DNA of 64,000 bases from a bacterium (GCA_043825615.1 JBDRRS010000003.1:125379-189378); one strand, 5' to 3'; counted from the first letter of the stretch, positions 1 to 60,406 are shown. The notes: generated by a model not told the origin, from the letters alone. Program-made: numbers and translations.

Positions 1-71
1 TAGATTCTAATTGGTTTTTTTGGCTTTTTATTGTAGGCGCTGCATTAGGGGGTTTTGGTGTACATTTCGCC

Positions 72-254
72 TTGGATTATTTTCAATTTAATAATTTACC
101 AAAATGGATAAAATTTACATTAATTATTCTTACGGGTATATTTTCTGGCTATCTCTTGGCAAAGATTAGGAATATTATCCAGTTAATTTTGCTTTATGTA
201 CTAATAGTTGGGGGTTTATTTTTGATAGGTTACTTTTTATGGTCAATACTTTAG
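72..254 (+). CDS. hypothetical small membrane protein (60 aa)
   Basis: ORF in track; hydrophobic, two predicted TM segments; AT-rich; followed within 12 nt by hairpin element copy A. Confidence 0.3.
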   Translation: MDYFQFNNLPKWIKFTLIILTGIFSGYLLAKIRNIIQLILLYVLIVGGLFLIGYFLWSIL

Positions 255-265
255 CTAAAAGAACA

Positions 266-323
266 GGGACGGTTCTGATACTTTTTAGTATGGAAATAAA
301 AACCAGAACCGTCTCGGTTTTTT
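266..323 (+). repeat. intergenic hairpin element copy A (terminator-like: 10-bp stem GACGGTTCTG/CAGAACCGTC, conserved loop, U-tract)
   Basis: Perfect 10-bp inverted repeat read directly; loop GATACTTTTTAG...GAAA..AAAACC shared with copies D, E, G; followed by TCGGTTTTTT. Confidence 0.6.
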
Positions 324-354
324 GAAAAGGTTATTTTAAATAGGAGGATAAATT

Positions 355-1134
355 ATGATTGTTCCTTTAAAAGATTTTGGCAAGTCAGTAAAAGAGCTAT
401 CACGAAATCCGCTTGGTATTATAGCGCTATTTATTGTGCTAGTTTATGGTTTTACATGCTTGCTATTTGGATTTTCAGCTAAATCTTTGACACCGAGCGA
501 AAGAGTTCCGCTTATATGGTTTACTACTCTTTTTCCTTGTTTAGTATTAGTTGTATTCTTTAGGTTAGTTACTAGACATAATCGGAAATTGTATGCTCCA
601 AAAGATTTTCGCGATGATGAATCATTCTTTGGAGCTATAAGAAAAAATCAAACGAATCCATCGGAAGCAAAGGAAAGTGATGCTGATATAAAGGATTTGA
701 TGGAATACGGCGAGGGCTTTCAAATAATCAAAAAACTGGAAGAAAAAATAAAAGAAGATTTACGAGTAAGAAAAGTTAGCAATTCTGATAAAAAGGCCGA
801 AGTTTTGATTCATCAGTTGGCGGCAGCGCAAGTATTAACTTGGTTTGAAAAAACATATTATATGCTGTTTGGCAGTCAAATTGCTTTATTAAAATCACTT
901 AATGAAACTCCTTCAGGACTTACAAAACACTTTATCTCTTATAGATTTTTTGAGACAGTTAGAAATCAATACCCAAAAGCATTTTTATCTTGGAGTGTAG
1001 ATAATTATTTAAATTTTCTTATAACGTCCAACTTGATTTTACCAGAAAATGATAAATTGGTTATAACTGTAGTGGGTAGAGAATTCCTAACATGGCTAAC
1101 AAAATCGGGATATTCTGAATTTAAAGAGTATTAA
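355..1134 (+). CDS. hypothetical membrane protein (N-terminal TM helices, C-terminal soluble domain)
   Basis: 259-aa ORF with RBS-like AGGAGG 8 nt upstream; hydrophobic stretches at residues ~20-70; no recognisable catalytic motif. Confidence 0.5.
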   Translation: MIVPLKDFGKSVKELSRNPLGIIALFIVLVYGFTCLLFGFSAKSLTPSERVPLIWFTTLFPCLVLVVFFRLVTRHNRKLYAPKDFRDDESFFGAIRKNQTNPSEAKESDADIKDLMEYGEGFQIIKKLEEKIKEDLRVRKVSNSDKKAEVLIHQLAAAQVLTWFEKTYYMLFGSQIALLKSLNETPSGLTKHFISYRFFETVRNQYPKAFLSWSVDNYLNFLITSNLILPENDKLVITVVGREFLTWLTKSGYSEFKEY

Positions 1135-1185
1135 TCCTAATAGCAATGAGAAAAAGGAAAAAAAAGGTAACGTCTTTGATATTGA

Positions 1186-1228
1186 GAGGGCGAAAATGAA
1201 GATGGAAACCAGAACCGCCCTGGATTTT
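1186..1228 (+). repeat. intergenic hairpin element copy B (GAGGGCG...CGCCCTGGATTTT)
   Basis: Stem GGGCG/CGCCC flanking loop containing GAAAACCAGAACC shared with copies A and C. Confidence 0.45.
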
Positions 1229-1312
1229 AGAAGCCTATCCAAGTGACTGATTTAGGATGTTACGTGATTAAAGAATTAATCTAATATCAAAATAGGGGGT
1301 AAGGTCATAAGA

Positions 1313-1915
1313 ATGCCAAAGAAATTAAGAGGTTATAAAATTTATATTGCACCGCAGATTTCAGGATATTTAGATACTAATGGACAACCTGTAGTATATG
1401 ATGAAAAAACAAAAAAGAGTCTTGACCCTAATAATATTAATGATAAAATTACAATTTATGAGAGACAAGTAAAAGAATGGTTTCTCAACAGGGCATCGAG
1501 ATTACTGAGTGGTAAGAAAAATGGATTTATAATTCTAATGTTGTCAATTTCTTATATTGAAGGTGTTGAGCGATATAGACAAGGGAATAATAGTAGAAAT
1601 AGTAGTACAAACTATTTTAAAACAGGGCTTCAAAGAATATTTGCGGCACTGCATGTAAGCAATCATGACTTAAATGATTTTTATAGCCAAGTAAGATGTG
1701 GATTATTTCATGTGGGGATGACACGAAAGCAAGTAATCATTAGTCAACTTTACCCTCATCCGATAGATTTTTCAGAATCAAACACTATAAAAATTAATCC
1801 AAAAAAATTTCTAAGGGATATAAAGCTAGATTTTAATAGGTATTTAAAAGAACTAAGAGACCCAACCAAGATTGACCTAAGAAATAACTTCGACAGTATG
1901 TATAGGAATATGTAA
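1313..1915 (+). CDS. hypothetical protein (200 aa)
   Basis: ORF in track, AT-rich island, co-directional with neighbours; no motif recognised. Confidence 0.5.
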   Translation: MPKKLRGYKIYIAPQISGYLDTNGQPVVYDEKTKKSLDPNNINDKITIYERQVKEWFLNRASRLLSGKKNGFIILMLSISYIEGVERYRQGNNSRNSSTNYFKTGLQRIFAALHVSNHDLNDFYSQVRCGLFHVGMTRKQVIISQLYPHPIDFSESNTIKINPKKFLRDIKLDFNRYLKELRDPTKIDLRNNFDSMYRNM

Positions 1916-2005
1916 GAAAATAGAAAAAAAGTTATAGCGTTAGAAATTTAATCCCCAAGAAGAAAAGTAAAAGAAAATGGTGAAGAAAGAGAAGGCGTAG
2001 AAGAA

Positions 2006-2028
2006 GATGAAAACCAGAACCATCCCGG
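2006..2028 (+). repeat. intergenic hairpin element partial copy C (GATGAAAACCAGAACCATCCCGG)
   Basis: 3' half of the element only; its GAACCATCCC is the exact complement of copy D 5' arm GGGATGGTTC. Confidence 0.4.
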
Positions 2029-2042
2029 ATAGAGATATATAG

Positions 2043-2678
2043 ATGAAAGAATATAAAACAATAAAAGATTGTGCAGTTGATATTATCTGTGAAAAAGGTG
2101 ATAAATTAAGCAATAAACAGATAGCTGAACAGGTACGGGATATTATGAAGTCAAATACTACTTGGAAATCTATTGCCTGGTATAAAAATAAAATAAACAG
2201 AGGGATTATAAAAGTTGACAGGCAGCAATATAAATGGATTAGAAAAGGAAAAGTGGTACTAAGAGAAATTACAGTTGAGAATTTAGATGAAATAAATTAT
2301 GAGAATGAAGCAGAAAGAATTGTAGCTGAATATGAGAAGAAACGAACCGGCAAATATCCAAAGAGTTTCAAAAAGGGACCGAATAGCCCCGGATATGATT
2401 TAGAGAGCACAGACCGACATATAGAGGTAAAGGGCAAAAAAAACAAAGGCACAAGATGGTTGCCCCTAACAGCCAATGAAACAGAGAAACTAATCAAAGA
2501 TCCAAAATACTGGTTGTATTTAGTGGAAGGGGATATAGAAAAAAAGCCGGACAATGTTGATATATATGCGATTTCAAAAAATGATTTACTAAGTATGACA
2601 CAACTTAAAATACATGCAAGATTAACGCAATTATCAAATAAAGAAAAGAGGAAGAATTGGAAGGTCAGGAAAGTGTGA
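2043..2678 (+). CDS. DUF3883-like (restriction-endonuclease-fold) domain protein with N-terminal helical/HTH-like region
   Basis: C-terminal segment GYDLESTDRHIEVKGKKNKGTRWLPLTANETEKLIKDPKYWLYLVEG resembles the DUF3883 signature as recalled (GYDi...IEVK...lT.nE...YwLY.V); sits directly upstream of Type III mod. Confidence 0.5.
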   Translation: MKEYKTIKDCAVDIICEKGDKLSNKQIAEQVRDIMKSNTTWKSIAWYKNKINRGIIKVDRQQYKWIRKGKVVLREITVENLDEINYENEAERIVAEYEKKRTGKYPKSFKKGPNSPGYDLESTDRHIEVKGKKNKGTRWLPLTANETEKLIKDPKYWLYLVEGDIEKKPDNVDIYAISKNDLLSMTQLKIHARLTQLSNKEKRKNWKVRKV

Positions 2679-2753
2679 GAGGAATTTGTTCTGAAACTGA
2701 ATTTCTTTGAGAGTTTAAAATTTGGTAGAATAGTGAAATGAGGAATTATTTAT

Positions 2754-4751
2754 ATGAAAAACATTTTTAAAAACAAATTGTATGCATTACTTAAAAAAGA
2801 CGTTCGCCTTTGGGACAAAGAAAAGAAAGAACTCAATGAAACTCTTCTGAAAGACTTGATTGATAAGCTAGACGAAAAACTGCTCGGATTGCTGCTCGAC
2901 GACAAAGAAGCAAAAGAAAAGTTTTTTATCAAAGTTAAAGACGTTTTTGTATTAAAGCAAAATGAGTTAAAATTTTTTATTGATGAAAACAAGCTTGATA
3001 ACTCCTATACACAATATCAAAACAAAATAGGATTGCGTGTCGGGAATAAACTTTTAAGCGAACGAGATGAAGTAGTTTTGGATTGGCCTTTCAAGGATTG
3101 TGTGCTTGAAGGCGGGATGACTAAAGAAGACCAAAAAAGAAATGAGATATTTTTTAATGTAGTGTTAGCAAAAGATGAAATTGACCGGTTGGAAGATCCG
3201 AAGGCATTGGTTAATTGGAAAAGATACACTGCTAATGGTGCGGAAAAGGTAAAAGAACTTGAAAGAGATAAAGACGGCACAATCCGGGAAAATTTAATTA
3301 TCAAAGGTAACAATTTGCTTGCTTTACATAGTCTTAAAGAGCAATTTGCCGGAATGGTGAAATTGATTTACATTGATCCGCCTTACAATAGAGACGCTGA
3401 CACTTTTTATAATGATAACTTTAAGCATTCAACATGGTTAACTTTCATGAAAAACAGACTGGAAGTTGCAAAAGATTTATTAAGAGATGATGGAGTGATT
3501 TTTGTGCAGTGTGATGATAATGAACAAGCATATTTGAAAGTTTTGATGGATAAAATTTTTGGAAAGGATTTGTTGCTTTCAATTCATCATATACAAGTTA
3601 GATATGGAAGTAAATCTTTAAATGAAAGAAAAGATTTTCAAGAATTATTAGAATACGTATTAATATACAAAAATAAAAATATTAATATTAATTTCAACAA
3701 ACCAACGCAAAAGTATCCATTAAATAAATTTAATTTAAAAATACAGCATTCAGATAAACCTTCAAAACAAGTTATTGAAAATGGAAGGAAAGTAGATATT
3801 TGGGATTCTGATAATTTTACTATTAAAGAACAGAAAACTGGAGGTATTGATTTTTTTAAAGAGACTTGGATTTCAGGTAGTATATTATCAGGTACTGGTC
3901 ACGGGAAAATGTATATAAAGATTATAGATAAAAGAAGAAGAGAAGATGGAAATGGATGTTTATATAGGATACATGGGATAGGTGAAGATGGACTGGGTTA
4001 TAGATATTATACTAACCCTCAAAATTCTGGTGCAGAAAGAGGAAAAATGTATACGAAAGTACCATTAAAGATTCTTGAACAAGTGAAAAAAGGGACTGCA
4101 AAAAAAGAAAGTCCAATAATTAATTATTATGATTTTAGTCCAGATATTGGGAATATTAGTCATGAAGGAGGTTTTTCTTTTAATTCAGGGAAAAAACCAA
4201 TTAAGATGTTGAAACAATTTATTAATTATTTTAAGGAAAAAAATTGTTTAGTTCTTGATTTTTTTGCTGGATCTGCTTCAACCGCTCACGCAGTTTTACA
4301 ACTTAACAAAGAAGATGGTGGAAACAGAAAATTTCTTTTAGTTGAACAAATGGATTATATAAACACCATTACTTGTCCCAGAGTGCAAAAAATAATAGAA
4401 AAAGAAAATATCGATGATTCTTTCATTTATCTCGAACTTGCTAAATGGAACGAAGAGGCAAAAGAAAAAATATTGAAAGCGAAAAGTTTGAGCGTCTTGG
4501 AAAAACTTTTTGACGAACTTTATGAGCGATATTTCCTTAACTACAATGTAAAAACAAAAGAGTTCAAAGAAAAAACGATTAAGGAAGAAGAATTTAAAAA
4601 GCTTGGTATAGCCAAACAGAAAAAACTTTTTGTTGAAATGTTGGATATGAACCAGATGTATGTGAATTTTAGCGAAAGAGCGGATAAGAAATACAATCTC
4701 TCAAAAGAAGACATTGCATTGAGTGAAGAATTTTATAAATCTAAAAAGTAA
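2754..4751 (+). CDS. mod: Type III restriction-modification system methyltransferase (Mod), N6-adenine beta-class
   Basis: Motif IV LIYIDPPYN (DPPY) at residue ~207 precedes motif I DFFAGSAST (FxGxG-like) at ~503, the beta-class order typical of Type III Mod; stop overlaps start region of res. Confidence 0.85.
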   Translation: MKNIFKNKLYALLKKDVRLWDKEKKELNETLLKDLIDKLDEKLLGLLLDDKEAKEKFFIKVKDVFVLKQNELKFFIDENKLDNSYTQYQNKIGLRVGNKLLSERDEVVLDWPFKDCVLEGGMTKEDQKRNEIFFNVVLAKDEIDRLEDPKALVNWKRYTANGAEKVKELERDKDGTIRENLIIKGNNLLALHSLKEQFAGMVKLIYIDPPYNRDADTFYNDNFKHSTWLTFMKNRLEVAKDLLRDDGVIFVQCDDNEQAYLKVLMDKIFGKDLLLSIHHIQVRYGSKSLNERKDFQELLEYVLIYKNKNININFNKPTQKYPLNKFNLKIQHSDKPSKQVIENGRKVDIWDSDNFTIKEQKTGGIDFFKETWISGSILSGTGHGKMYIKIIDKRRREDGNGCLYRIHGIGEDGLGYRYYTNPQNSGAERGKMYTKVPLKILEQVKKGTAKKESPIINYYDFSPDIGNISHEGGFSFNSGKKPIKMLKQFINYFKEKNCLVLDFFAGSASTAHAVLQLNKEDGGNRKFLLVEQMDYINTITCPRVQKIIEKENIDDSFIYLELAKWNEEAKEKILKAKSLSVLEKLFDELYERYFLNYNVKTKEFKEKTIKEEEFKKLGIAKQKKLFVEMLDMNQMYVNFSERADKKYNLSKEDIALSEEFYKSKK

Positions 4752-4753
4752 AT

Positions 4754-7528
4754 ATGGACGAGCAAAATCTTCAACAACTTGTTGAATCAGAAATAGGCCG
4801 CAAAACCATTTCTAAGATAGAAATACCGGAGTTTATATCCAGTAATTTAAAGCATGATTTTTGGTATTGGCAAAAAGAAGCTTTGCAGTATTTTGTTGCC
4901 TTTGATGCTCTGGAATATGAATATGAAAAGCCGCTAAACGAGCCAACGCATTTGATGTTTAATATGGCCACTGGTACCGGCAAAACTCTGCTTATGGCCG
5001 CTTTAATTATATATTACTACAAAAAAGGCTATAGATATTTCATTTTCTTTGTTAATCAAAACAATATCGTTGATAAAACTGAAAATAATTTTATCAATAA
5101 AAATCATACCAAGTATCTTTTTCACCAAAATATAGTTATTGACGATAAAACTATCAATATCCGTAAAGTAGAAACTTTTGACAATGCTAATGATATTCAA
5201 ATCAAGTTCACATCTATTCACAAGCTTCACAATGTTGTTTATTTGGCAAAAGAAAATGCGGTCACGCTGGAAGATTTACAAAAAAGAGATTTAGTAATGA
5301 TTGGCGATGAAGCTCATCACTTCAATGCTTCAACTATGAGAAATGGACAAACGGAAATGGATTTGCCAACCGAGCTAAAAGGAAATGCCAGCGAAAAAGA
5401 TGTTGAGAAAAGTTGGGAAAATACAGTGTTGAATAAAATTTTAAGAAAAGGCAAAAATAAACAAGATGTTGAAAATAGAAATGTTTTATTGGAATTTACT
5501 GCAACGATACCGAGAAATGCGGATGTTATAGAAAAATATCGCACTAAGACCATTTATAAATTTGAACTTGTAGATTTTTTAAACGCGGGATATACCAAAG
5601 AAATAAATCTCGTTTCTACTTCGCTCAAAAAGAAAGAAAAAATTTTACTTGCTTTGCTTTTTAACTGGTATAGGCATCAAATTGCTCTTAAAAATAATAT
5701 TGCCAATTTTAAGCCTGTTATTCTTTTTAGAAGTAAGTTTATTAAAGAATCAAAGAAAGATTATGAAGAATTTTTGTCGGTTGTTGATAATTTAAAACCT
5801 GCCGATTTTTATTTTTTAAAAAATATTGAAAATTCCATAAAACAAGAGCAATCCAGTGCGTTCAAGGTATATGAACAAGGCAAAAGTCGAGTGCGACAAA
5901 TGCTCCAATTTATCAAGTATAAAAAAATCAACAGTCGAGAAATTGTGAACTATATCAAAGACGAATTTACCGAAAGAAACTGTATTATAACTAACTCGAA
6001 AGACAACAAGGCAACTACTAAAGAGAAAACAACAGAATACCAAGAACAATTACTTAATAGTTTGGAGGATAGAAATAATCATATACGGGCTATTTTTACT
6101 GTTAAACGCCTAACGGAAGGGTGGGATGTTTTAAATCTTTTTGATATTGTTCGCCTTTATAACGGTAGGGATGAAGGCTACGAAAAAAGTACTGGGAAAA
6201 GAAAAGCTGGAGAGGCAACCGTTCAGGAAATACAGCTCATCGGGCGAGGTGTACGCTACTTTCCTTTTTTTTACAATGAACACGAGAAAAACAAGAGAAA
6301 ATTTGATAATGAATTAGAAAATCCACTTCGGGTGTTAGAGGAATTTTATTACCACAGCGACGACGATGTCCGCTATCTTGATGAGTTAAAGCGAGAACTT
6401 AAAAATAAAGGATTTATTCAAGATAATCGCGAGATAAAGAAATTTGCTCTGAAAGATGAATTTAAGCAAAACTATTTCTTTAAAGAAATAAAAGTTTGGA
6501 AAAATGAAAGAATAGATAATCCAGAAAAAAGAAAAAGAACTTTGGCGGAATTGGAAAAAGAATTTGTTTTTGAATATGAAACAAAAGAATTTGCATTGAA
6601 AGAACAGCAAATTGTTTTAGATAAAGAAAAAGATGAAATTTTAGCGGAAAGTTTACAAAAATATAAAAAAACTATCAGCGCAAAAGTTTCGGATTTTGAG
6701 AAGCATATTGTTTGGAAAGCAATTAATAAAAAAGCTACAAAGGATTTATCGCTTTTACGTTTTGATAACTTGCAAAAGGAGTTGAATCTAAATAGTGTTG
6801 ATGAAATTTTATCAGATCGTTTTATCGGCAATTTTAGGGTCAATATTATTGTAGCAAAAGAAAAACAGGGGCTTGATGATATAAGCAATGACGAAAAACT
6901 GGAGTTATTTTTAAAGTTTTTTGATGAATTTACAAGAAAACTCAAAGAAATAGCCAATCCGTATAAGGGAACTGAAAAATTTGAGCCATTTTCTTTTGAA
7001 GATTTATTTGGCGAGGAAAAGCCAAAGAGCGTGCTTATTGATCCTGAAAGTAAAAATCTTGAGGCTGAATTATTAAAAAATAGCTGGTATGTTCTAAATG
7101 GATTTAATGGAACAAGCGAAGAAAGAGAATTATTAGAATTTATGAAAAATAAAATCGGAAATCTACAAGAAAAATATAATGAAGTTTATTTACTACGGAA
7201 TGAAGAAGTATATAAAATTTACGATTTCGAACAAGGACGTGGATTTGAGCCGGATTTTTTGCTTTTTCTAAAAGGCAATAAAGGAAATTTATATTATCAA
7301 ATCTTTATTGAGCCAAAAGGAAGCCAATTTAAGGACAAGGATGGTATGTTTAAATATAGCAAAGAAGGCTGGAAAGAAGAATTTTTACAGAAAATTACTG
7401 ATAAATATGGCAATGGTAATTTATTGAAAGCTGAAAGTAAAGAATATAAATTGCTTGGATTGCCTTTATTTAATGAAAGAGAAAAACATACTTTCGAAGA
7501 AACATTCAACGAACAATTGTTTAACTAA
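4754..7528 (+). CDS. res: Type III restriction endonuclease Res subunit (SF2 helicase + PD-ExK nuclease)
   Basis: Walker A MATGTGKT, DEAH box (MIGDEAHHF), 924 aa; C-terminal PD...ExK-like motif (EPDF...QIFIEPKG); immediately downstream of mod. Confidence 0.85.
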   Translation: MDEQNLQQLVESEIGRKTISKIEIPEFISSNLKHDFWYWQKEALQYFVAFDALEYEYEKPLNEPTHLMFNMATGTGKTLLMAALIIYYYKKGYRYFIFFVNQNNIVDKTENNFINKNHTKYLFHQNIVIDDKTINIRKVETFDNANDIQIKFTSIHKLHNVVYLAKENAVTLEDLQKRDLVMIGDEAHHFNASTMRNGQTEMDLPTELKGNASEKDVEKSWENTVLNKILRKGKNKQDVENRNVLLEFTATIPRNADVIEKYRTKTIYKFELVDFLNAGYTKEINLVSTSLKKKEKILLALLFNWYRHQIALKNNIANFKPVILFRSKFIKESKKDYEEFLSVVDNLKPADFYFLKNIENSIKQEQSSAFKVYEQGKSRVRQMLQFIKYKKINSREIVNYIKDEFTERNCIITNSKDNKATTKEKTTEYQEQLLNSLEDRNNHIRAIFTVKRLTEGWDVLNLFDIVRLYNGRDEGYEKSTGKRKAGEATVQEIQLIGRGVRYFPFFYNEHEKNKRKFDNELENPLRVLEEFYYHSDDDVRYLDELKRELKNKGFIQDNREIKKFALKDEFKQNYFFKEIKVWKNERIDNPEKRKRTLAELEKEFVFEYETKEFALKEQQIVLDKEKDEILAESLQKYKKTISAKVSDFEKHIVWKAINKKATKDLSLLRFDNLQKELNLNSVDEILSDRFIGNFRVNIIVAKEKQGLDDISNDEKLELFLKFFDEFTRKLKEIANPYKGTEKFEPFSFEDLFGEEKPKSVLIDPESKNLEAELLKNSWYVLNGFNGTSEERELLEFMKNKIGNLQEKYNEVYLLRNEEVYKIYDFEQGRGFEPDFLLFLKGNKGNLYYQIFIEPKGSQFKDKDGMFKYSKEGWKEEFLQKITDKYGNGNLLKAESKEYKLLGLPLFNEREKHTFEETFNEQLFN

Positions 7529-7541
7529 AATGGAAAAGTAT

Positions 7542-7599
7542 GGGGATGGTTCTGATACTTTTTAGGATGGGAATGAAAACCGGAAGCGTCCCGGATTTT
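7542..7599 (+). repeat. intergenic hairpin element copy D
   Basis: GGGGATGGTTCTGATACTTTTTAGGATGGGAATGAAAACCGGAAGCGTCCCGGATTTT; outer stem GGGATG/CGTCCC compensates relative to copy A. Confidence 0.55.
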
Positions 7600-7619
7600 A
7601 CAAACAAAAGGAGGTCATT

Positions 7620-7724
7620 ATGAGTGCAAAAAAGAAAGCAAAGAAGAAAGCAAAGAAGAAAGTAGCTAAAAGGAAAGGCACAAAAAAGAGTACAGGTCCT
7701 GGAGGAGGCCGATCTGGTCGATAG
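7620..7724 (+). CDS. lysine-rich micro-ORF (34 aa, MSAKKKAKKKAKKKVAKRKGTKKSTGPGGGRSGR)
   Basis: ATG preceded by AAAGGAGG RBS at -8; not in ORF track (below 60 aa); low-complexity basic peptide. Confidence 0.3.
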   Translation: MSAKKKAKKKAKKKVAKRKGTKKSTGPGGGRSGR

Positions 7725-7743
7725 AGAAGTACTAAATTATAAT

Positions 7744-8196
7744 ATGGGTGGAAGTGGGCAAAATAGATTCAAGAATGCAGAGGAAGCCTTAAAGAAACTC
7801 GGTCAGGATTTTAATGATTGGTGTTCTATTTTAACGACTCACAGTATGCAAGCTGCATATGCAATTATCGCAGCAAACTGGGCCGTGCATGGTAATGCTC
7901 AAAAAATACTCAATAATTGTTGCTCAAAATGGTCACTTGTCGTTGTTTTCCTATTTCTTGGGGTAAACTTGCTCGCAACCAAATGGATGATCCACAAGCA
8001 CTACAAACAATTTCTATATGCAGAGGAGAACTCGGAAAGATGGGAAAAAGAATTCAGAGAAAATAAGGGCAAACGAACTTTCTGGCCGTATACTAAGTGT
8101 ATTGAATATCTTGGTATTGCTCTCCGTTGGCTGAAAGTGGGGGCACCAGTGATAGCTGCTCTGCTATTCATTCTGAGTCTGTTCTTTGGATCGTAA
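7744..8196 (+). CDS. hypothetical membrane protein (150 aa)
   Basis: ORF in track; hydrophobic segments (WSLVVVFLFLGVNLLA, APVIAALLFILSLFF). Confidence 0.45.
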   Translation: MGGSGQNRFKNAEEALKKLGQDFNDWCSILTTHSMQAAYAIIAANWAVHGNAQKILNNCCSKWSLVVVFLFLGVNLLATKWMIHKHYKQFLYAEENSERWEKEFRENKGKRTFWPYTKCIEYLGIALRWLKVGAPVIAALLFILSLFFGS

Positions 8197-8211
8197 TGGT
8201 ACAACGAAGAA

Positions 8212-8275
8212 CGGGAACAGTTTTGATACTTTTTAGGATGAGAATTAAAAGCGGAAGAGCACCTGTGCTCTTTGC
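8212..8275 (+). repeat. intergenic hairpin element copy E (diverged 3' arm GAGCACCTGTGCTC)
   Basis: Shares GTTTTGATACTTTTTAGGATGAGAATTAAAAGCGGAAG with copies A and D. Confidence 0.45.
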
Positions 8276-8554
8276 TTGGAGAGAACGTGAGTAAACAAAA
8301 CCTTAGAAGCTATCCAGTAATAGCGCACGGAGCAGAATATCTTGTAATCGGCTATCTGATGCGTAGGAATATCCTTGCTTACAAGGCATAGCCAGAGAGC
8401 GTTACAAGAATGAAAAGGGGTTTGATATTATCGCAAAGAAATTGGGTATATCTTACCCGGGGATGGAAGATGTCTTACCTGCCTGACGGCAGGCAGGTTG
8501 TAAAGTGCTGTCCCCGCGGATGCTTTGTGTATAATGACGGTAGGAGAAAAAAAT

Positions 8555-8968
8555 ATGAAACCAAACAATTTAAACTCAAGTTTATTTAATTTTGATTATG
8601 TAATCGTAAAAAAACAATGGCTTCGAAATTTTAAGGAAATCATTAAAGATTTAAAAAAGTTAAAAACGAGATCAAAAACTAATATTAAAAAAATAGCAGA
8701 AAAAGATTTAAGAAAAACTATAGAAAATCATATAAAAGATAATGCAGAAGAATTTACTAGAATTATAGAACTCATTGAATTGCAAGTAAGAGTGCTAGTA
8801 AAATTGGAGGAATTTAGTGTTGAAACTCTAAACAAACATCTTTTTTTAACACTTACTCTTTTTAGAATGTTCCATAAGAAAGATATTTCAAAAAGTTTAG
8901 AAAGAAAATTAAGTTGTATTTGTAACCGTCTTAAATGTAGATTTACAAAATTTAAAAAGAAATTCTAA
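8555..8968 (+). CDS. hypothetical protein (start moved to internal Met MKPNNL)
   Basis: ORF 8525-8968 in track; GGAGA RBS-like precedes the ATG at 8555; no motif recognised. Confidence 0.4.
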   Translation: MKPNNLNSSLFNFDYVIVKKQWLRNFKEIIKDLKKLKTRSKTNIKKIAEKDLRKTIENHIKDNAEEFTRIIELIELQVRVLVKLEEFSVETLNKHLFLTLTLFRMFHKKDISKSLERKLSCICNRLKCRFTKFKKKF

Positions 8969-9011
8969 TAAATCTCTCAGCAGACTTTTGAATTAAGATG
9001 AAAAGAGAAAA

Positions 9012-9056
9012 AGGGTACCGGGGCTTTTAAAATGGGAATGGTAACCGGAAGCGGAT
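9012..9056 (+). repeat. intergenic hairpin element copy F (partial)
   Basis: AATGGGAATGGTAACCGGAAGCGG matches the 3' half of copy D. Confidence 0.4.
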
Positions 9057-9138
9057 AATAGAAAAAGTAGGATGTTCCCCTTTCCTCCATAATGTGGAAC
9101 TTTTTTTAAAATAAAATAGATAGAAGGAGAATATTTGT

Positions 9139-10302
9139 ATGGGAGTTTTTAAGTTTAAAACAAATATAGGGATAATGAGTATAGATTATAGACAAACAAA
9201 GAATTTCCCAACGGAAGTTAGAATAGTATCAAAGGATGATTTCGATAGACATATTGAATTTGATTTAGCCACTCACATTAAAATAGAAATCAATCAGTTC
9301 GTAAGTATTCATGATGATGATGGAACTTATTTGATATATGGTGGTTTAAAAATAAGCAAAATAGAACAAAATCTTGAGAGAATCCGATATTATTGTGATT
9401 TAGATAAAATGATATTTGAAAAAAAAGATGTGTTATACAAGGTTGACCATTGGGAAATTGAATTATTTGGAGTTGATTTTTATTCAGAAGAGATCCTGAG
9501 CGGTGAAATGAGATTCCCTTTTTCTCATAAAATTGATAAACCTTTTAGTTTATTTGAAGTCAAACAGCAATCTTGGGAAATACCATATAAAGGATATGAT
9601 TTTTTTGAAAGCCAAGATTTAATATTTGACCTTGTTAGAATACTTTCAATACTCTCCATGAGAGAAGTATGTTTTGGTGACATAAAAGCGTATAATGAAA
9701 ATAATGAATGTATAAAAGCTCAATTAAATAAACCAAAATATATATTTGAACCGAAACTAGATTATAAAATAGGGAATCTAAAGCTAAAAAAATCCTTAAA
9801 TTTTATTTCTGAATTACCTAATCTTAGTTCAAAAAAATATTCTACGCTGGTTTTTTACTATTTAAATGTATTTCATCAAACCTATGCAGAATTTAGTTTA
9901 GCATTTATGTATCAAGTTTTCGAGTGTATATTTAATTCAAAATGGAAACAAGAAAAAGAATTTCTGAAAATTAAAGAGAAGGGGGAGAAAACAAATGAAT
10001 TAAAGAATGAATACATAGAGAAAAAAATAATAGAAGCTTATCGTGTGCTAAACAAAGATGTACAAAATATATTGGATATTACACCGGGGGAATTCTTTAA
10101 ATTGATTAAAAAAATAAGACAGGTATATTTTCATGCAGGGGATTTAAGTAAAGCACTAAATGAAATGAGAAATAAACTACCAGGCGTTAGAAACGAAGAT
10201 AGAAATTATATTATAGCATTAGGGCAAGTAGTATTATCGGTATTATTACTTTCGGCGGTATATGATTATTCTTTAGAGGATATAGAAGTAACAACTAAAT
10301 AA
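9139..10302 (+). CDS. hypothetical protein (387 aa)
   Basis: ORF in track; last gene of AT-rich island; no motif recognised. Confidence 0.5.
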   Translation: MGVFKFKTNIGIMSIDYRQTKNFPTEVRIVSKDDFDRHIEFDLATHIKIEINQFVSIHDDDGTYLIYGGLKISKIEQNLERIRYYCDLDKMIFEKKDVLYKVDHWEIELFGVDFYSEEILSGEMRFPFSHKIDKPFSLFEVKQQSWEIPYKGYDFFESQDLIFDLVRILSILSMREVCFGDIKAYNENNECIKAQLNKPKYIFEPKLDYKIGNLKLKKSLNFISELPNLSSKKYSTLVFYYLNVFHQTYAEFSLAFMYQVFECIFNSKWKQEKEFLKIKEKGEKTNELKNEYIEKKIIEAYRVLNKDVQNILDITPGEFFKLIKKIRQVYFHAGDLSKALNEMRNKLPGVRNEDRNYIIALGQVVLSVLLLSAVYDYSLEDIEVTTK

Positions 10303-10313
10303 AAAGAAAAACG

Positions 10314-10347
10314 AGATTAGTTCTAATACTTTTCTATCTATTGAAAC
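10314..10347 (+). repeat. intergenic hairpin element weak copy H (GTTCTAATACTTTT)
   Basis: Shares GTTCTAATACTTTT with copy G; 12 nt after stop of the 9139-10302 ORF. Confidence 0.3.
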
Positions 10348-10566
10348 CTGCAGAAAGAAATTACATCCTGACAAAACTATCATTCTCGTGGTCTGAAGAA
10401 CTTCGGGTTTTGTAAAGTACGGGATACGGGTAACGGGGGAAGAACAAATCCCCCTCAATCCCCCTTTACTAAAGGGGGAAAGATTGCCACGGGCTTCGCC
10501 CTCGCAATGGCAGGCCAGGGGGAGGAAAGAACTTTGAGTTAAGAAAGCATTTGGTATAATTGCGCT

Positions 10567-11346
10567 ATGATTGGCGCGATAGCGGGTGATATTATCGGTT
10601 CTGTCTTTGAATGGAATAATATTAAGACGACGGAGTTCCCTTTATTTTGTGACGAATCAATGTTTACGGACGATACAGTATTAACCATAGCGGTTGCCGA
10701 TTGTATATTAAACAGTAAAGATTATGCCGGGACTCTTAAATCATGGGGCAGAAAATATCCGGATGCCGGATACGGGGGAAATTTCGGGGCATGGCTGTAT
10801 AATGAGAGAAGCGAACCGTATAACAGTTGGGGGAACGGGTCGGCTATGAGAGTCAGTCCGGTTGGTTTTGCTTTCGGAACCCTTGAGGAAGTATTGGAAG
10901 AAGCAAAGAAAAGCGCTGAAGTAACCCACAACCATCCTGAAGGAATAAAAGGCGCCCAGGCGGCCGCCGGAGCAATATTTTTAGCGAGGCAGGGTAAAAG
11001 TAAAATTGAAATTAAGGAGTATGTGGAAGAGCAATTTGATTATAACCTGAGCAGAACTCTTGATGAAATCAGACCGTCATATTCCTTTGATGTGAGTTGT
11101 CAGGGCTCTGTGCCCGAAGCTATAACCGCATTTTTAGAGTCAAACAGTTTTGAGGATGCAGTTAGAAAAGCGGTTTCAATAGGAGGGGACAGCGATACGA
11201 TTGCCTGTATAGCGGGCGGAATTGCCCAGGCGTTTTATAAGGAAATTCCTGCGGAAATTATATTGAATGTAAAAAAAAGATTGCCGCCGGATATGCTGGG
11301 GGTTGTTGAAGAATGGAGAAAGAGAATAGTAAATGGTAAATGGTGA
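10567..11346 (+). CDS. ADP-ribosylglycohydrolase family protein (DraG/ARH-like)
   Basis: Family-typical N-terminal GAIAGDIIGS and C-terminal GGDSDTIACIAGGIAQA motifs. Confidence 0.8.
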   Translation: MIGAIAGDIIGSVFEWNNIKTTEFPLFCDESMFTDDTVLTIAVADCILNSKDYAGTLKSWGRKYPDAGYGGNFGAWLYNERSEPYNSWGNGSAMRVSPVGFAFGTLEEVLEEAKKSAEVTHNHPEGIKGAQAAAGAIFLARQGKSKIEIKEYVEEQFDYNLSRTLDEIRPSYSFDVSCQGSVPEAITAFLESNSFEDAVRKAVSIGGDSDTIACIAGGIAQAFYKEIPAEIILNVKKRLPPDMLGVVEEWRKRIVNGKW

Positions 11347-11386
11347 TTAGGGAAGAAGGACGAGAGGTATTTAGTATAATTGTGGT

Positions 11387-12235
11387 ATGAGACTTCATAT
11401 CGTCGTATTATTTTCAATTATTGTCTTATCTCTAACAGCGCCGGTCTATGCGGATAATAAAAATGAGATTAATCTTAATTTAGAATGCTCAAGTTATGCG
11501 GGAACGAGCAGAAATATTAATTATTCTTACCGGTCCGGTAAACTTCCATTAAAATACCAGATAGAGAGTTTTACTTTTCCAAATAAAAGGGTAATCAGGA
11601 GTGTTCTTTCGGGAAGAATTTCATTGGATATGAAATACTTCGAACTTGGCTATGGCTATAATTGTGATAAATTCAGTACTGGCCGCAATGGAATATTACG
11701 TATAGGTTCAAAAAATGCATGGGCGCTTGTACTTAAAGGATTCTACAATGTAGAAGAACAGTTTCTGATTGGTGAAAAGAGAAGATACAATACATCAGCT
11801 TACATGGATATGTTGATAGTGTTTGGTAATTTAATATATTTGAACTTTGATTTGAACATGGTGGGGATGCATGTAACTGATGAAGTTATAGATGAAGATG
11901 GAGCATGTAGGGACACTATTAAAGAAGAATCAGATTTTATTTCAGATGCTGAATTTAGTTTAAAAATAAAACTGTTTCCCAGAAGGAAAATATCATATTT
12001 CGTTGGAATAGGTGGGATAAGCAATGAAAATATACATTATGGCGAGAACACTGAAGATTATTGTTTTGTTGGCTATTTTGAGATACTTAATCAGATAAAT
12101 AAGAATATTCATTGGAATATTTCTTTCAAGTGCGGAAATGGTGAAAAGAGTTATCGTACAGGAGAGTTCGAACCCTCGACGAATTCAAGCCAAAAGATGA
12201 TTGGATTGTTTACAAGCGTTTCTTATAAATTGTAA
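11387..12235 (+). CDS. hypothetical secreted protein
   Basis: N-terminal signal peptide-like MRLHIVVLFSIIVLSLTAPVYA; no motif recognised. Confidence 0.45.
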   Translation: MRLHIVVLFSIIVLSLTAPVYADNKNEINLNLECSSYAGTSRNINYSYRSGKLPLKYQIESFTFPNKRVIRSVLSGRISLDMKYFELGYGYNCDKFSTGRNGILRIGSKNAWALVLKGFYNVEEQFLIGEKRRYNTSAYMDMLIVFGNLIYLNFDLNMVGMHVTDEVIDEDGACRDTIKEESDFISDAEFSLKIKLFPRRKISYFVGIGGISNENIHYGENTEDYCFVGYFEILNQINKNIHWNISFKCGNGEKSYRTGEFEPSTNSSQKMIGLFTSVSYKL

Positions 12236-12249
12236 TTAGAGGGTTTTTT

Positions 12250-13167
12250 TTATTCGGGATATTCTTCTTCGTCGTCTTTCTCCGGAGAGATAAAGGATAT
12301 TTTGTAGGTTTTCCCGTTCGTCACTATTCTGATTGTTCCGTCCGTGTCGGTTCTGCATACGAGTGAGCCGTAATTTCTTAATCTGTTTATTACGCCGCTC
12401 TGCGGGTGTCCCCATGTGTTCGGACCGACGCAGATGATGGATACCAGCGGCTGCGCCCAGTCCAGAAACCAGTTTTGTGTAAGAGAGTTTTCAGAGCCGT
12501 GATGCGGGACCTTTAAAACAGTGCAGAGAAGATCGTCCTTGAAGGAGCGGACTATTTTCCGGCCCGCCGCTGCTTCCGCGTCACCGGTGAAGAGAAAAGA
12601 AACATCTTTGTAGGTCAGTTTGAAGACAACAGAGTTATCGTTCGCCGGTGACCCTCCGCGCCTTAGGTATTTTTTAGGGGGGTGCAGGATTTTGATTTGG
12701 CAGTCTTTGTCCCAATCCAGCTCATCGCCTGCGTGCACCTCTATCAGGGATATGTCTTTTTTTTCGGCAATCTTCAGTATCAGTTCGTAATCTTCTTCAT
12801 CCGGGGGGAAACCCGAATCCACGATGGTGCCCACATCAAATTCTTGGACAACGGGCCTGATGCCTCCGATGTGATCGCTGTGCGGATGGCTCATGATGAT
12901 ATAATCAATGTATTTTATACCCATTTTCTTGAGGAAAGGAACAACGATTGTTGAGCCGGCGTCAAACGGGTTCCATCCGACACCGCCGCTTCCGCCGTCC
13001 GAAAGCACTGTTTTGCCGCCCGGAAGTTGTATGAGAGCGCAATCTCCCTGTCCGACGTCAATAAAGGTTATCCTGAGAAGTTTTTCAGGCGGGTTTTGGG
13101 GCGCTGCGGTTATACCGGATACGAGAAAAATGAGCGCAGCCGCGCATATTTTTATTGGGATTTTCAT
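12250..13167 (-). CDS. MBL-fold metallo-hydrolase, ComEC/Rec2 C-terminal-domain-like, secreted
   Basis: HPHSDH motif, DVGQGD, HHGS; signal peptide. Confidence 0.75.
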   Translation of the reverse strand: MKIPIKICAAALIFLVSGITAAPQNPPEKLLRITFIDVGQGDCALIQLPGGKTVLSDGGSGGVGWNPFDAGSTIVVPFLKKMGIKYIDYIIMSHPHSDHIGGIRPVVQEFDVGTIVDSGFPPDEEDYELILKIAEKKDISLIEVHAGDELDWDKDCQIKILHPPKKYLRRGGSPANDNSVVFKLTYKDVSFLFTGDAEAAAGRKIVRSFKDDLLCTVLKVPHHGSENSLTQNWFLDWAQPLVSIICVGPNTWGHPQSGVINRLRNYGSLVCRTDTDGTIRIVTNGKTYKISFISPEKDDEEEYPE

Positions 13168-13272
13168 TACGATATTGTAATAATTAAAAGCCGGAACGCA
13201 AAAAGTTCAAGGGAAGAGGCGGGTAACGGGGAGCGGGCCGGGGCTTTGCAATAAAAGAAAGGGTAAAAGAAA

Positions 13273-13359
13273 GGGGACGGTTCTAATACTTTTTGGGCGG
13301 GGCAAAATAAGAAACACCGTTGGTTTCGGGGAAATGTCATATTGTAAAGCACCGTCCCC
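13273..13359 (+). repeat. intergenic hairpin element copy G (outside the AT-rich island)
   Basis: GGGGACGGTTCTAATACTTTTTGGG...; distal complement CACCGTCCCC at 13350-13359; upstream of ankyrin gene. Confidence 0.45.
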
Positions 13360-13382
13360 ATTGCTAAAATATAAAAAGCGAA

Positions 13383-19848: not shown

Positions 19849-19890
19849 AATTCTATTATATCAATATATCAATTTCCTGCAAGCACGGGT

Positions 19891-19941
19891 CCAAGCATGG
19901 GGTCATCCAAGCATGGGGTCCATGCATCCAAGCATGGGGTC
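19891..19941 (+). repeat. tandem repeat, three copies of CCAAGCATGGGGTC
   Basis: Read directly: copies at 19891, 19907, 19928. Confidence 0.7.
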
Positions 19942-19956
19942 AGGTCTTGCAATGCA
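19936..19956 (+). repeat. REP-like element GGGGTCAGGTCTTGCAATGCA (forward)
   Basis: Same 18-mer at 35744 and inverted at 20006 and 36612. Confidence 0.7.
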
Positions 19957-20005
19957 ACAGTTATTGAAGGAAATTGAGGAGTTTATGAAGGAAATTAATG
20001 TGTTA

Positions 20006-20023
20006 ATGCAAGACCTGACCCCC
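20006..20023 (-). repeat. REP-like element (inverted copy), with 19936-19956 forms a REP doublet
   Basis: ATGCAAGACCTGACCCCC is the reverse complement of the REP core; ~50 bp from the partner. Confidence 0.7.
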
Positions 20024-20024
20024 A

Positions 20025-60390: not shown

Positions 60391-60406
60391 TTTGCCTCCT
60401 GTTATA

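What the first reader, a model, noticed from the sequence alone, without database searches (positions are those of the whole stretch)
266..13359. Recurrent intergenic hairpin element (at least 8 copies) with conserved loop and covarying stem
Copies at 266, 1186, 2006, 7542, 8212, 9012, 10314 and 13273 share a core (GGGACGGTTCTGATACTTTTTAGGATGGGAATGAAAACCGGAAGCGTCCCGGATTTT consensus). Stem arms change in a compensatory way between copies (GACGGTTCTG/CAGAACCGTC in A; GGGATGG/CGTCCC in D; GGGCG/CGCCC in B) while loop sequence is retained. Several copies lie 8-14 nt after a stop codon and are followed by a U-run, suggesting intrinsic terminators. Loop conservation and one copy in a divergent promoter region (13273) argue for an additional role: protein-binding site, small-RNA module or recombination site delimiting gene cassettes.
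Basis: seen in the sequence. Interest (0 to 1): 0.65.

Follow-up and report, generated by a model that had tools for sequence, protein, structure and literature searches.

The report
REPIN-like transposase repeats between island genes
The recurring intergenic "hairpins" are copies, many of them decayed, of a small non-coding mobile repeat whose arms match the inverted repeats flanking a tyrosine (IS200-like, RAYT-type) transposase gene in related Elusimicrobiota; this is a known kind of bacterial repeat, not a new RNA or cassette system.

Summary
The copies are real. A covariance model built from full copies recovers seven of the eight claimed sites, all on the + strand within 1-13,359. The eighth (C) is confirmed by homology to a full copy elsewhere. 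Nothing credible lies in the other 50 kb.

The "conserved loop, covarying stem" description does not hold. Only A, D and H can form the long stem. B, C, E, F and G are half or decayed copies. Five full copies show no two-sided compensatory change.

The arms (GGGGACGGTTCTRATAC / its complement) match the inverted repeats flanking Y1 (IS200-like, REP-associated-type) transposase genes at five independent places on metagenomic and Elusimicrobiota MAG contigs. The elements are therefore gene-less inverted doublets of a transposase end, that is REPIN / "TIR-repeat" elements.

The window holds a complete sister system. A Y1 gene sits between perfect 18-bp inverted repeats (35744-36629) and is absent from a close relative. 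A gene-less doublet of the same repeat lies at 19936-20022.

Terminator activity is plausible only for copy A. One thing remains unexplained: the subfamily with the conserved spacer sits next to restriction-modification, toxin-antitoxin and similar genes in four of the five places found, in islands whose gene modules are shuffled.

Verdict: a new member of a known kind, of modest interest.

The parts
257..327 (+). Copy A, a full doublet. Left arm GGGACGGTTCTG 266-277, spacer 278-303, right arm CAGAACCGTCTC 304-315, T-run 318-323. The left arm starts 11 nt after the stop of ORF 72-254.
   Evidence: Read. CM 89.8 bits. RNA fold -26.9 kcal/mol, z -5.5. ssDNA fold z -4.4.
1158..1233 (+). Copy B, a chimeric or decayed doublet. 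Variant left arm GGTAACGTCTTTGATATTGAGAG 1166-1188, different spacer, right arm ACCAGAACCGCCC 1208-1220, then TGGATTTT.
   Evidence: CM 16.3 bits, E 0.017. No significant fold. The same variant left arm occurs in L064 at 5827 and 6958.
1981..2038 (+). Copy C. Part of the spacer plus the right arm only (ACCAGAACCATCCCGG 2013-2028), 14 nt upstream of the NOV_C/DUF3883 gene.
   Evidence: CM only 8.9 bits. It lies inside a 666-bp, 80% match to L030, where the same gene is preceded by a full copy.
7534..7604 (+). Copy D, a full doublet after the type III restriction gene. Left arm GGGGATGGTTCTG 7542-7554, right arm CCGGAAGCGTCCC 7580-7592, then GGATTTT.
   Evidence: CM 94.3 bits. RNA fold z -2.3 with G.U pairs and a G.G mismatch. 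As ssDNA it folds as two small separate hairpins.
8205..8275 (+). Copy E. Left arm (GGGAACAGTTTTGATAC 8213-8229) plus the conserved spacer. The right arm is replaced by an unrelated small hairpin, AAGAGCAC-CT-GTGCTCTT, 8255-8272.
   Evidence: CM 77.6 bits. The long stem is absent, z -1.0.
9001..9064 (+). Copy F. Spacer and right-arm remnant (TTTTAAAATGGGAATGGTAACCGGAAGCGG 9025-9054). The left arm is not recognisable.
   Evidence: CM 16.5 bits, E 0.014. Fold z -0.4.
10305..10374 (+). Copy G. Degenerate left arm only (GAGATTAGTTCTAATACTTTT 10313-10333), 10 nt after the stop of ORF 9139-10302.
   Evidence: CM 14.8 bits, E 0.053. 16 of 21 matches to the arm consensus. No fold.
13265..13359 (+). 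Copy H. Perfect left arm GGGGACGGTTCTAATACTTTT 13273-13293 with a variant right arm AAGCACCGTCCCC 13347-13359 (heterodimer, 55-nt spacer). It lies between the divergent MBL-fold and ankyrin genes, at the edge of the low-GC region.
   Evidence: CM 31.8 bits, E 1.6e-7. The same doublet type occurs in L038, L034 and L019. The arm is identical over 21 nt to the repeat flanking the L008 transposase gene.
35744..36629 (-). Sister system, not the same repeat family. A Y1_Tnp(+HTH) gene at 35748-36584 lies between perfect 18-bp inverted repeats GGGGTCAGGTCTTGCAAT. It shows in this genome the autonomous form from which such doublets derive.
   Evidence: Pfam Y1_Tnp and NCBIfam REP_Tyr_transpos 79.8 bits. 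Repeats found. The unit is absent between aroA and cmk in relative L068.
19936..20022 (.). Gene-less inverted doublet of the sister repeat GGGGTCAGGTCTTGCAAT, intergenic, with iterated AAGCATGGGGTC sub-repeats beside it.
   Evidence: ssDNA hairpin z -3.6.

Best explanation
The elements are non-autonomous, gene-less inverted doublets of the terminal repeat of a Y1 (HUH, IS200-like) REP-associated-type tyrosine transposase unit. In published terms they are REPINs (Bertels & Rainey 2011) or the 'TIR repeats' of TIRtrons/TIRYTs (Di Nocera et al. 2013).

The full unit is about 57 nt: (AAAAGWAT)GGGGACGGTTCTGATAC, a spacer of about 22 nt, then (A)ACCAGAACCGTCCC. The conserved 'loop' is conserved because the whole doublet is copied as one unit. 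The stem is 'conserved' because both arms are the same transposase-recognised sequence in opposite orientation.

Inferred mechanism, from what is established for IS200/IS605 TnpA and E. coli TnpA-REP, and not tested here. In single-stranded DNA the doublet folds. A cognate Y1 enzyme encoded elsewhere in the genome binds and cleaves at the arms and re-inserts the unit in intergenic DNA, typically just 3' of genes. Copies that lose one arm stop moving and decay. That would give the half copies B, C, E, F and G.

Any effect on transcription, such as termination or 3'-end protection, would be a by-product and is plausible only for the intact copy A.

Shown: the repeat family, its arms, its link to the transposase, and the decay states. 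Inferred: the mobilisation mechanism and the identity and location of the acting enzyme in this genome.
For: 1. Arm identity. The arms are identical or nearly identical to the inverted repeats flanking Y1 transposase genes:
- L008: AAAAGTATGGGGACGGTTCTAATACTTTT ... TTAGAACCGTCCCCATACTTT.
- L015: the same with G at the R position.
- L060, L061, L062/L063 (proteins 65% identical to L015's, named Elusimicrobiota MAG): every gene lies between GGGGACGGTTCTGGT and ACCAGAACCGTCCCC.

2. Protein family. These proteins hit Pfam Y1_Tnp and NCBIfam 'REP-associated tyrosine transposase'. L015 scores 92 bits against a cut-off of 80. The IS200 equivalog scores far below its cut-off.

3. Repeat specificity. 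A second Y1 gene in L015 carries a different repeat, GGGGACAGGTACT. That is the one-enzyme-one-repeat pattern of RAYT systems. These repeats fit, or are one base off, the published TIR motif GGGGWSAS (PMC3733652).

4. Dispersal. A metagenome scan with the arm found 50 loci. Many hold inverted doublets with variable spacers that fold as long ssDNA hairpins, z -8 to -9. Neighbouring genes are mostly housekeeping: a tRNA synthetase, Lon, LptFG, RF, transporters. This is the behaviour of a dispersed REP-like family. Arms tend to sit 0-20 nt after a co-oriented stop codon.

5. A sister system in the window. A Y1 gene lies between perfect 18-bp repeats and is absent from a close relative, and a gene-less doublet of the same repeat lies 16 kb away.

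6. Host. The AroA encoded in the window is closest to named Elusimicrobia sequences, so host and transposase lineages agree.

7. Negative results that fit. There is no Rfam family at any threshold tried, and no covariation.
Against: - No cognate transposase gene for this particular repeat lies in the 64-kb window. The in-window Y1 protein is only 34% identical to the cognate ones and has a different repeat.
- All 8 copies are confined to the low-GC 13 kb, with none in the other 50 kb. A classical dispersed REP family would be spread more evenly.
- All 8 share the orientation of the genes.
- The 13-nt core is not itself a palindrome and lacks the GTAG tag of classical REPs, so it fits the 'TIR repeat' subclass rather than textbook REP.
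- Genome-wide copy number could not be measured.
- Mobility of these doublets was not observed directly.
Confidence: 0.8

Rival explanations
1. The elements are primarily intrinsic (Rho-independent) terminators or 3'-UTR stabilising hairpins. They are kept because each ends a transcription unit in the island.
For: All 8 copies are co-oriented with the genes. A, D, G and E start 10-16 nt after a stop codon. A has a 12-bp stem followed by 6 T, RNA z -5.5. In L064 the variant arm follows genes in the gene's own orientation on both strands. REPs are reported to lie mostly downstream of ORFs and to act on mRNA (PMC3733652).
Against: The loop is 26 nt, against 3-8 nt in typical terminators. The terminator scan calls none of them on the + strand. 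Five of 8 copies do not fold better than shuffles. Only A has a real U-run. H lies between divergent genes. The family also flanks transposase genes, where termination makes no sense. There is no structure-preserving covariation.
Confidence: 0.12
2. The elements are recombination sites that delimit mobile gene cassettes in a defence island. The system would resemble an integron but use another enzyme (for example the Y1 transposase), or simply homologous recombination between copies.
For: There is one element in nearly every intergenic gap of the island, and all have the same orientation.

The subfamily with the conserved spacer was found in five places. Four are next to defence-type genes:
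- the window (type III RM, NOV_C);
- L004 (HNH, Imm5-like, MNT/HepT);
- L030 (HsdS, NOV_C, AAA_15/21);
- L014 (type ISP RM).

Modules are shuffled between islands, with junctions inside elements. NOV_C in the window and in L030 has different neighbours on both sides, and homology starts at the arm/spacer border. The 259-aa gene and the 75-aa ORF are shared with L064 in a different arrangement.
Against: The attC layout is not met. GTT is on the left arm and AAC on the right, the reverse of R''(..AAC)...R'(GTT..). Sequence is conserved rather than structure. Ten ORFs of integrase-like size in the core part of the window were scanned and none is a recombinase. The GGGG ends face outwards in the doublet, as in the transposase unit, so the doublet and not the gene is the transposon-like unit. 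The family as a whole lies among housekeeping genes. The distance from element to gene differs between homologous modules, so no precise cassette boundary exists. Only two shuffled modules were seen.
Confidence: 0.1
3. The elements encode a structured small RNA or a riboregulator module, with the conserved 'loop' as its functional part.
For: The 22-nt spacer TTTTTAGGATGGGAATGAAAAC is nearly identical in A, D, E, L004, L030 and L022.
Against: There is no Rfam match at gathering score or at E<=1. There is no covariation. The scan found no more promoter-like sites than shuffles in the region. Spacer conservation is expected if the doublet is copied as a unit. Other doublets of the family have unrelated spacers of 12-80 nt.
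Confidence: 0.03

Closest known systems
REPIN-RAYT systems (Pseudomonas fluorescens SBW25; Bertels & Rainey 2011, PMC3116915)
   Same: Two copies of a short repeat lie in inverted orientation around a spacer and can fold as a hairpin in ssDNA or RNA. Half copies look like decayed remnants. The same repeat flanks a Y1 transposase gene in inverted orientation, with one repeat type per transposase. The location is extragenic.
   Different: The repeat here is not itself a palindrome and has no GTAG tag. No compensatory changes were seen among the full copies. Copy number in this genome is unknown. The local copies are clustered in one low-GC island rather than spread out. The host is an Elusimicrobiota-like MAG, not a proteobacterium.
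TIRtrons / TIRYT transposases and their TIR repeat families (Di Nocera, De Gregorio & Rocco 2013, PMC3733652; e.g. Stenotrophomonas maltophilia K279a, Koribacter versatilis)
   Same: A RAYT-like Y1 gene is flanked by long non-palindromic inverted repeats that begin with a GGGGWSAS-type motif. Observed repeats: GGGGACGG (one base off), GGGGACAG and GGGGTCAG (exact). The repeats also occur as moderately abundant gene-less dimers and clusters.
   Different: This repeat sequence and host phylum are not among those listed in the passages of that paper read here. The iterated AAGWATGGGGAC sub-terminal repeats and the heterodimer with a conserved spacer are particular to this family.
E. coli REP/BIME elements with TnpA-REP (structure: Messing et al. 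2012, PMC3479197)
   Same: Intergenic repeats lie just 3' of genes and are recognised as single-stranded DNA by a Y1 HUH enzyme. Secondary effects on mRNA 3' ends are reported.
   Different: E. coli REPs are GC-rich 35-nt palindromes with a GTAG tag. The sequences are unrelated.
Integron attC sites and cassette arrays
   Same: There is one imperfect-palindrome element after almost every gene in a co-oriented array of accessory, defence-type genes. Modules are shuffled between genomes.
   Different: The polarity of the GTT/AAC triplets is reversed. Sequence rather than structure is conserved. No integron integrase was seen. The element also occurs singly among housekeeping genes and flanks a transposase gene.
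Neisseria intergenic mosaic elements (dRS3 / Correia repeats)
   Same: Clusters of short repeats from different families lie in intergenic regions next to variable genes. Here a second, G/C-rich repeat family is interleaved at 10418-10500.
   Different: The sequences are unrelated, and the associated enzymes differ or are unknown. This comparison rests on recalled knowledge plus the mention in PMC3733652.

Membership tests
REP / REPIN (RAYT-associated repeats) | Short sequence repeated many times, located outside genes | tested here: met
   Eight copies in the window, all intergenic. The arm occurs in 50 metagenome loci, some of them duplicate contigs, and is expected about 0 times in shuffles of the window. 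Genome-wide copy number in the source genome is not known.
REP / REPIN (RAYT-associated repeats) | Two repeats in inverted orientation around a spacer, able to form a hairpin (the REPIN unit) | tested here: met
   A, D, H and L004, and doublets in L016, L025, L049, L051, L052 and L053. ssDNA folds give z -4 to -9. Not met by the decayed copies B, C, E, F and G.
REP / REPIN (RAYT-associated repeats) | A Y1 (RAYT) transposase gene flanked by the same repeat in inverted orientation | tested here: met
   Met at five independent places in related contigs: L008, L015, L060, L061 and L062/63. Not found for this repeat inside the window. The window's own Y1 gene carries a different repeat.
REP / REPIN (RAYT-associated repeats) | Each repeat is itself a small palindrome with a conserved GTAG (or CGTC) tag at one end (classical REP, PMC3733652) | tested here: not met
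   The core GGGGACGGTTCTG is not self-complementary. The flank is GTAT, GAAT, AACG or ATCG, not a conserved GTAG. It therefore fits the 'TIR repeat' subclass rather than textbook REP.
TIRtron / TIRYT repeat families (Di Nocera 2013) | RAYT-like gene flanked by long inverted repeats unrelated to GTAG REPs, many starting with GGGGWSAS, with gene-less copies as dimers or clusters | tested here: met
   GGGGACGG matches 7 of 8 positions. GGGGACAG (L015 second gene) and GGGGTCAG (window 35744-36629) match 8 of 8. Dimers were found.
Intrinsic terminator | G+C-rich stem, loop of 3-8 nt, followed at once by a run of at least 5 U | tested here: not met
   The loop is 26 nt. Only A has 6 U, and D and B have 4. 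The scan calls no + strand site at any copy. Five of 8 copies have no stable fold.
Integron attC | Outer arms R'' (RYYYAAC) on the left and R' (GTTRRRY) on the right; structure conserved but sequence free; adjacent IntI integrase | tested here: not met
   GTT is on the left arm and AAC on the right. The sequence of the arms is nearly invariant. Ten ORFs of integrase-like size scanned in the core part of the window hold no integrase. The region upstream of the window could not be fetched.
Structured RNA family (Rfam) | Match to a curated covariance model, or covariation supporting a fold | tested here: not met
   No match at gathering score in 64 kb. No match at any copy at E<=1 in 1-13,500. 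Zero pairs change on both sides.
MITE of a DDE-type insertion sequence | Terminal inverted repeats plus a target-site duplication, related to a DDE transposase IS | tested here: not met
   No direct repeat flanks A, D or L004. The related autonomous unit encodes a Y1 HUH enzyme, not a DDE enzyme.

The most novel reading that the evidence does not exclude
The subfamily with the conserved spacer (A/D type) would be more than a selfish repeat. In Elusimicrobiota-like genomes it would mark the junctions of single-gene or single-operon defence modules (RM, TA, NOV_C, HNH and unknowns). It would promote their exchange between islands, either as portable homology for recombination or through the Y1 transposase acting on arms that flank a gene. 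That would make it an integron-like cassette system built on a different enzyme and site.
Probability: 0.1. Interest if true: 0.6.

Novelty: new member of a known kind. Interest (0 to 1): 0.3.

Why it matters
The finding itself is ordinary. It adds an undescribed REPIN/TIR-repeat family, with its cognate Y1 transposases, in Elusimicrobiota, a phylum known almost only from MAGs. These repeats probably break assemblies there: contigs from a Logan assembly of run SRR26275509 that carry identical genes end inside or beside copies.

Two points could interest specialists.
- RAYT-type genes are usually regarded as domesticated and immobile. Here one such unit is present between aroA and cmk and absent from a relative whose flanks are about 81-86% identical in DNA, so the whole unit seems to have moved recently.
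- One subfamily of the doublets keeps turning up at the junctions of shuffled defence genes. If that association is real, it would bear on how defence islands are assembled.

Tried and rejected
- **Integron attC / cassette array.** This was my first idea, from the low-GC co-oriented array. I rejected membership: the polarity of the GTT/AAC triplets is reversed, the arms are invariant, no integrase was found among the ORFs scanned, and the doublet has the same topology as the transposase unit.
- **CRISPR-like or dif/Xer-like site.** I considered these from the sequence and dropped them. There is no regular spacing and no resemblance to dif beyond a short AT-rich centre.
- **Rfam.** Nothing at gathering score or at E<=1.
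- **Genome-contig scan with the spacer pattern.** Of five hits, I read three: one is a real relative (L004), and L003 and L006 match only the AT-rich pattern. L002 and L005 hold no arm core.
- **First metagenome scan with a 26-nt spacer pattern.** It found nothing. The arm pattern then found 50 loci.
- **Viral-contig scan.** Two hits (L057, L058) hold no match to the arm core within one mismatch. I did not examine them further.
- **Fetching DNA upstream of the window.** This failed. Only short contigs from the Logan assembly of run SRR26275509 are indexed for these proteins, so the left end of the island and any recombinase there were not seen.
- **An error corrected.** I first concluded that the window's own Y1 gene had no flanking repeats. 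Comparison with relative L068 showed perfect 18-bp inverted repeats.
- **Possible related doublets around the 259-aa gene in L065-L067.** I found these by eye. The similarity is 18 of 22 with an indel, so I treat the relationship as tentative.

Full report
**Observation**

The repeat finder groups 257-327, 7534-7604, 8205-8275 and 13265-13335 as one 71-nt family. The core and arm patterns are expected about 0 times in shuffles.

I built a covariance model from five full copies: window A, D and E, plus L004 and L030 (alignment A2, model R1). I ran it over all 64 kb with filters off.

| Copy | Bits | E-value |
|---|---|---|
| A, D, E (training) | 78-94 | 1.9e-22 to 7.2e-28 |
| H | 31.8 | 1.6e-7 |
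| F | 16.5 | 0.014 |
| B | 16.3 | 0.017 |
| G | 14.8 | 0.053 |
| C | 8.9 | 4.2 |
| best hit beyond 13.4 kb | 13.8 | 0.11 |

C is still genuine. It lies inside a 666-bp, 80% identical match to locus L030, where the same NOV_C/DUF3883 gene is preceded by a full copy. A ninth partial copy lies just left of the window (L001 476-505).

**The hairpin and the covariation claim**

Only three window copies can form the long stem.
- A has 12 perfect pairs (RNA -26.9 kcal/mol, z -5.5).
- D has one G.G mismatch and G.U pairs (z -2.3).
- H forms its outer 9 bp.

E, F, B, C and G fold no better than shuffled sequence.

On the five full copies the 12 stem pairs are 86.7% paired, but no pair changes on both sides. 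The covariation score does not exceed the shuffles. Across 16 doublets from the window and other loci, the two arms are essentially the same 16-nt sequence in opposite orientation. The only true double change is in L052, GGGGATGG / CCATCCC.

So the stem is conserved as sequence and shows no structure-driven covariation.

**Terminator idea**

The left arm starts 10-16 nt after a stop codon in A, D, G and E. The consensus scan calls none of the copies as a + strand terminator. The loop is 26 nt, and only A is followed by a real T-run. Termination is plausible for A and weak or impossible for the others.

**What the arms are**

A metagenome scan with the left arm (GGGAYGGTTCTRATACTTTT) returned 50 loci, some of them duplicate contigs. 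In many of them the arm has an inverted partner...TTAGAACCGTCCCC, 12-80 nt away. These doublets fold as long ssDNA hairpins with z -8 to -9.

In L008 and L015 the arm and its inverted copy flank a 224-232-aa ORF. That ORF hits Pfam Y1_Tnp and the NCBIfam model 'REP-associated tyrosine transposase'. L015 scores 92 bits against a cut-off of 80, and the IS200 model scores far below its cut-off.

Homologues of this protein are labelled Elusimicrobiota MAG. I fetched three of their contigs. Each gene again lies between GGGGACGGTTCTGGT and ACCAGAACCGTCCCC. That makes five independent transposase loci sharing the 13-nt core GGGGACGGTTCTG.

A second Y1 gene in L015 is flanked by a different repeat, GGGGACAGGTACT. 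This is the one-enzyme-one-repeat pattern of such systems.

The window's copy H matches the L008 repeat at 21 of 21 positions. Copy D matches the L015 repeat over nearly its whole length of about 28 nt.

**Comparison with the literature**

Bertels & Rainey (PMC3116915) define REPINs as two REPs in inverted orientation around a spacer. REPINs are predicted to fold in ssDNA or mRNA, single copies are decayed remnants, and cognate RAYT genes are flanked by the repeats.

Di Nocera et al. (PMC3733652) describe RAYT-like genes flanked by long non-palindromic inverted repeats rather than GTAG palindromes. They call these 'TIRtrons' and the enzymes 'TIRYTs'. Many of the repeats start with GGGGWSAS, and gene-less copies occur as dimers or clusters.

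The repeats here fit that motif exactly (GGGGACAG, GGGGTCAG) or with one difference (GGGGACGG). The core is not self-complementary and has no GTAG tag. The second description is therefore the more exact home.

**A sister system inside the window**

The ORF at 35748-36584 (-) is a Y1_Tnp protein with a C-terminal HTH. It is 34% identical to the L015 enzyme. I first thought it lacked flanking repeats.

Comparison with a close relative corrected this. In L068 (AroA 89% identical) aroA and cmk overlap directly and the Y1 gene is absent. The inserted segment in the window is bounded by perfect 18-bp inverted repeats, GGGGTCAGGTCTTGCAAT, at 35744-35761 and 36612-36629.

The same repeat forms a gene-less inverted doublet at 19936-20022. 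It has iterated AAGCATGGGGTC sub-repeats beside it and an ssDNA fold of z -3.6.

So this one window shows both forms of the element type: the autonomous form, and for a sister family the gene-less doublet. The finding's copies are the doublet form of another family, whose enzyme gene is not in view.

**Host and context**

The window comes from an NCBI MAG labelled only 'bacterium' (locus tags ABIJ15_007xx, contig 252,432 bp). Its AroA is closest to named Elusimicrobia sequences, at 65% identity.

Positions 1 to about 10.4 kb have 30-33% G+C, against 45-52% for most of the rest of the window. This region encodes:
- a type III RM pair,
- a NOV_C/DUF3883 protein,
- several proteins with no family match.

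**What remains unexplained**

All eight copies lie in the first 13.4 kb of the window (the low-GC island and the stretch up to the ankyrin gene), and all are co-oriented with the genes. The family at large is not defence-specific. The 78 ORFs next to arms in the metagenome loci are mostly housekeeping.

The subfamily with the conserved spacer was found in five places. Four are beside RM, TA or HNH genes: the window, L004, L030 and L014. The fifth, L022, is at an island edge.

Modules are also shuffled between islands.
- NOV_C has different neighbours on both sides in L030, and homology starts at the arm/spacer border.
- The 259-aa gene and a fragment of the 75-aa ORF recur in L064 in another arrangement, next to related arms.

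Recombination between dispersed copies would produce exactly such chimeric junctions, so this does not need a dedicated cassette mechanism.

Several features argue against a cassette system with precise boundaries.
- The topology of the doublet, with GGGG ends outwards, is that of the transposase unit.
- The element-to-gene distance varies between homologous modules.
- No integrase was found among ten ORFs of integrase-like size scanned in the core part of the window.

The co-orientation could reflect the strand bias known for Y1 transposases, since GC skew is positive across the island. It could also reflect selection against antisense hairpins. Both are inferences.

**Verdict**

The elements are REPIN / TIR-repeat doublets of a Y1 RAYT-type transposase family of Elusimicrobiota, in intact, chimeric and decayed states. 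This is a new member of a known kind. My confidence is about 0.8 and my interest score about 0.3.

Noticed in passing
window 35744-36629 (-): A complete Y1_Tnp(+HTH) transposase unit lies between perfect 18-bp inverted repeats GGGGTCAGGTCTTGCAAT, inserted exactly at the aroA/cmk junction. It is absent from a close relative (L068), where the two genes overlap. In the window the repeats now encode the last codons of aroA and the start codon and first residues of cmk. RAYT-type genes are usually regarded as immobile, so this looks like a recent move.
   Followed up: partly
window 19880-20040: A gene-less inverted doublet of the same 18-bp repeat (19936-19953 / 20005-20022) lies in the gap between the PilZ/cNMP-binding gene and ORF 20025-20828 (-). 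Iterated AAGCATGGGGTC sub-repeats lie on the left and GACCCCACTAT on the right.
   Followed up: partly
window 10418-10500; L001 1-47; L004 3700-3790 and 5150-5260: A second, G/C-rich repeat family (CCCCTCCCTTGACGGGAGGGGATGAAGGGGAGGGTGATAT..., plus CCCCCGTATCCCGTA...) is interleaved with the elements at island junctions. It occurs in either orientation. One Logan contig (L001) ends in it.
   Followed up: no
window 1-10400: A low-GC (30-33%) island of co-oriented accessory genes: a type III RM pair (2754-7528), a NOV_C/DUF3883 protein (2043-2678), a 259-aa protein with a weak winged-helix hit whose homologues recur in defence-like islands of other bacteria (L064-L067), and four ORFs with no family match in Pfam or PADLOC.
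   Followed up: partly
window 8260-8520: The non-coding stretch after copy E holds what looks like the broken start of a gene (translated ...VSKQNLRSYPVIAHGAEYLVIGYLMRRNILAYKA*). It is probably a pseudogene remnant.
   Followed up: no
window 60394-60700: Two tandem units of about 150 nt (86% identical over 69 nt) lie upstream of the minus-strand gene 59056-60390. Each has a G/C hairpin (GGGGAAGTTTCCCC / GGGGGGATTTGCCCCCC). There is no Rfam match.
   Followed up: no
window 18003-18053 and L033 344-396: A 51-nt stretch in the gap after the TPR gene is 85% identical to a stretch beside two tandem arm copies in L033. It is possibly another small repeat family.
   Followed up: no
L034 2-805 and 819-890: A XerC/D-like tyrosine recombinase gene, cut by the contig end, is followed 14 nt later by an H-type doublet. 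It is the only recombinase among 78 ORFs next to arms, so it is probably a coincidence.
   Followed up: no
L065 1261-1382 and 2347-2506 (same in L066, L067): The 63%-identical homologue of window gene 355-1134 is flanked on both sides by doublets of about 125-160 nt (ACAGACGYTTTRAAAAT ... GAATRAAAAYCAAAACGTYTC). Their right part resembles the spacer plus right arm of the finding's element at 18 of 22 positions. This is possibly a related family in another lineage, next to OLD-like and PLD genes.
   Followed up: partly
window 7621-7725: A 34-codon lysine-rich ORF (MSAKKKAKKKAKKKVAKRKGTKKSTGPGGGRSGR) with a good ribosome-binding site lies directly after copy D.
   Followed up: no
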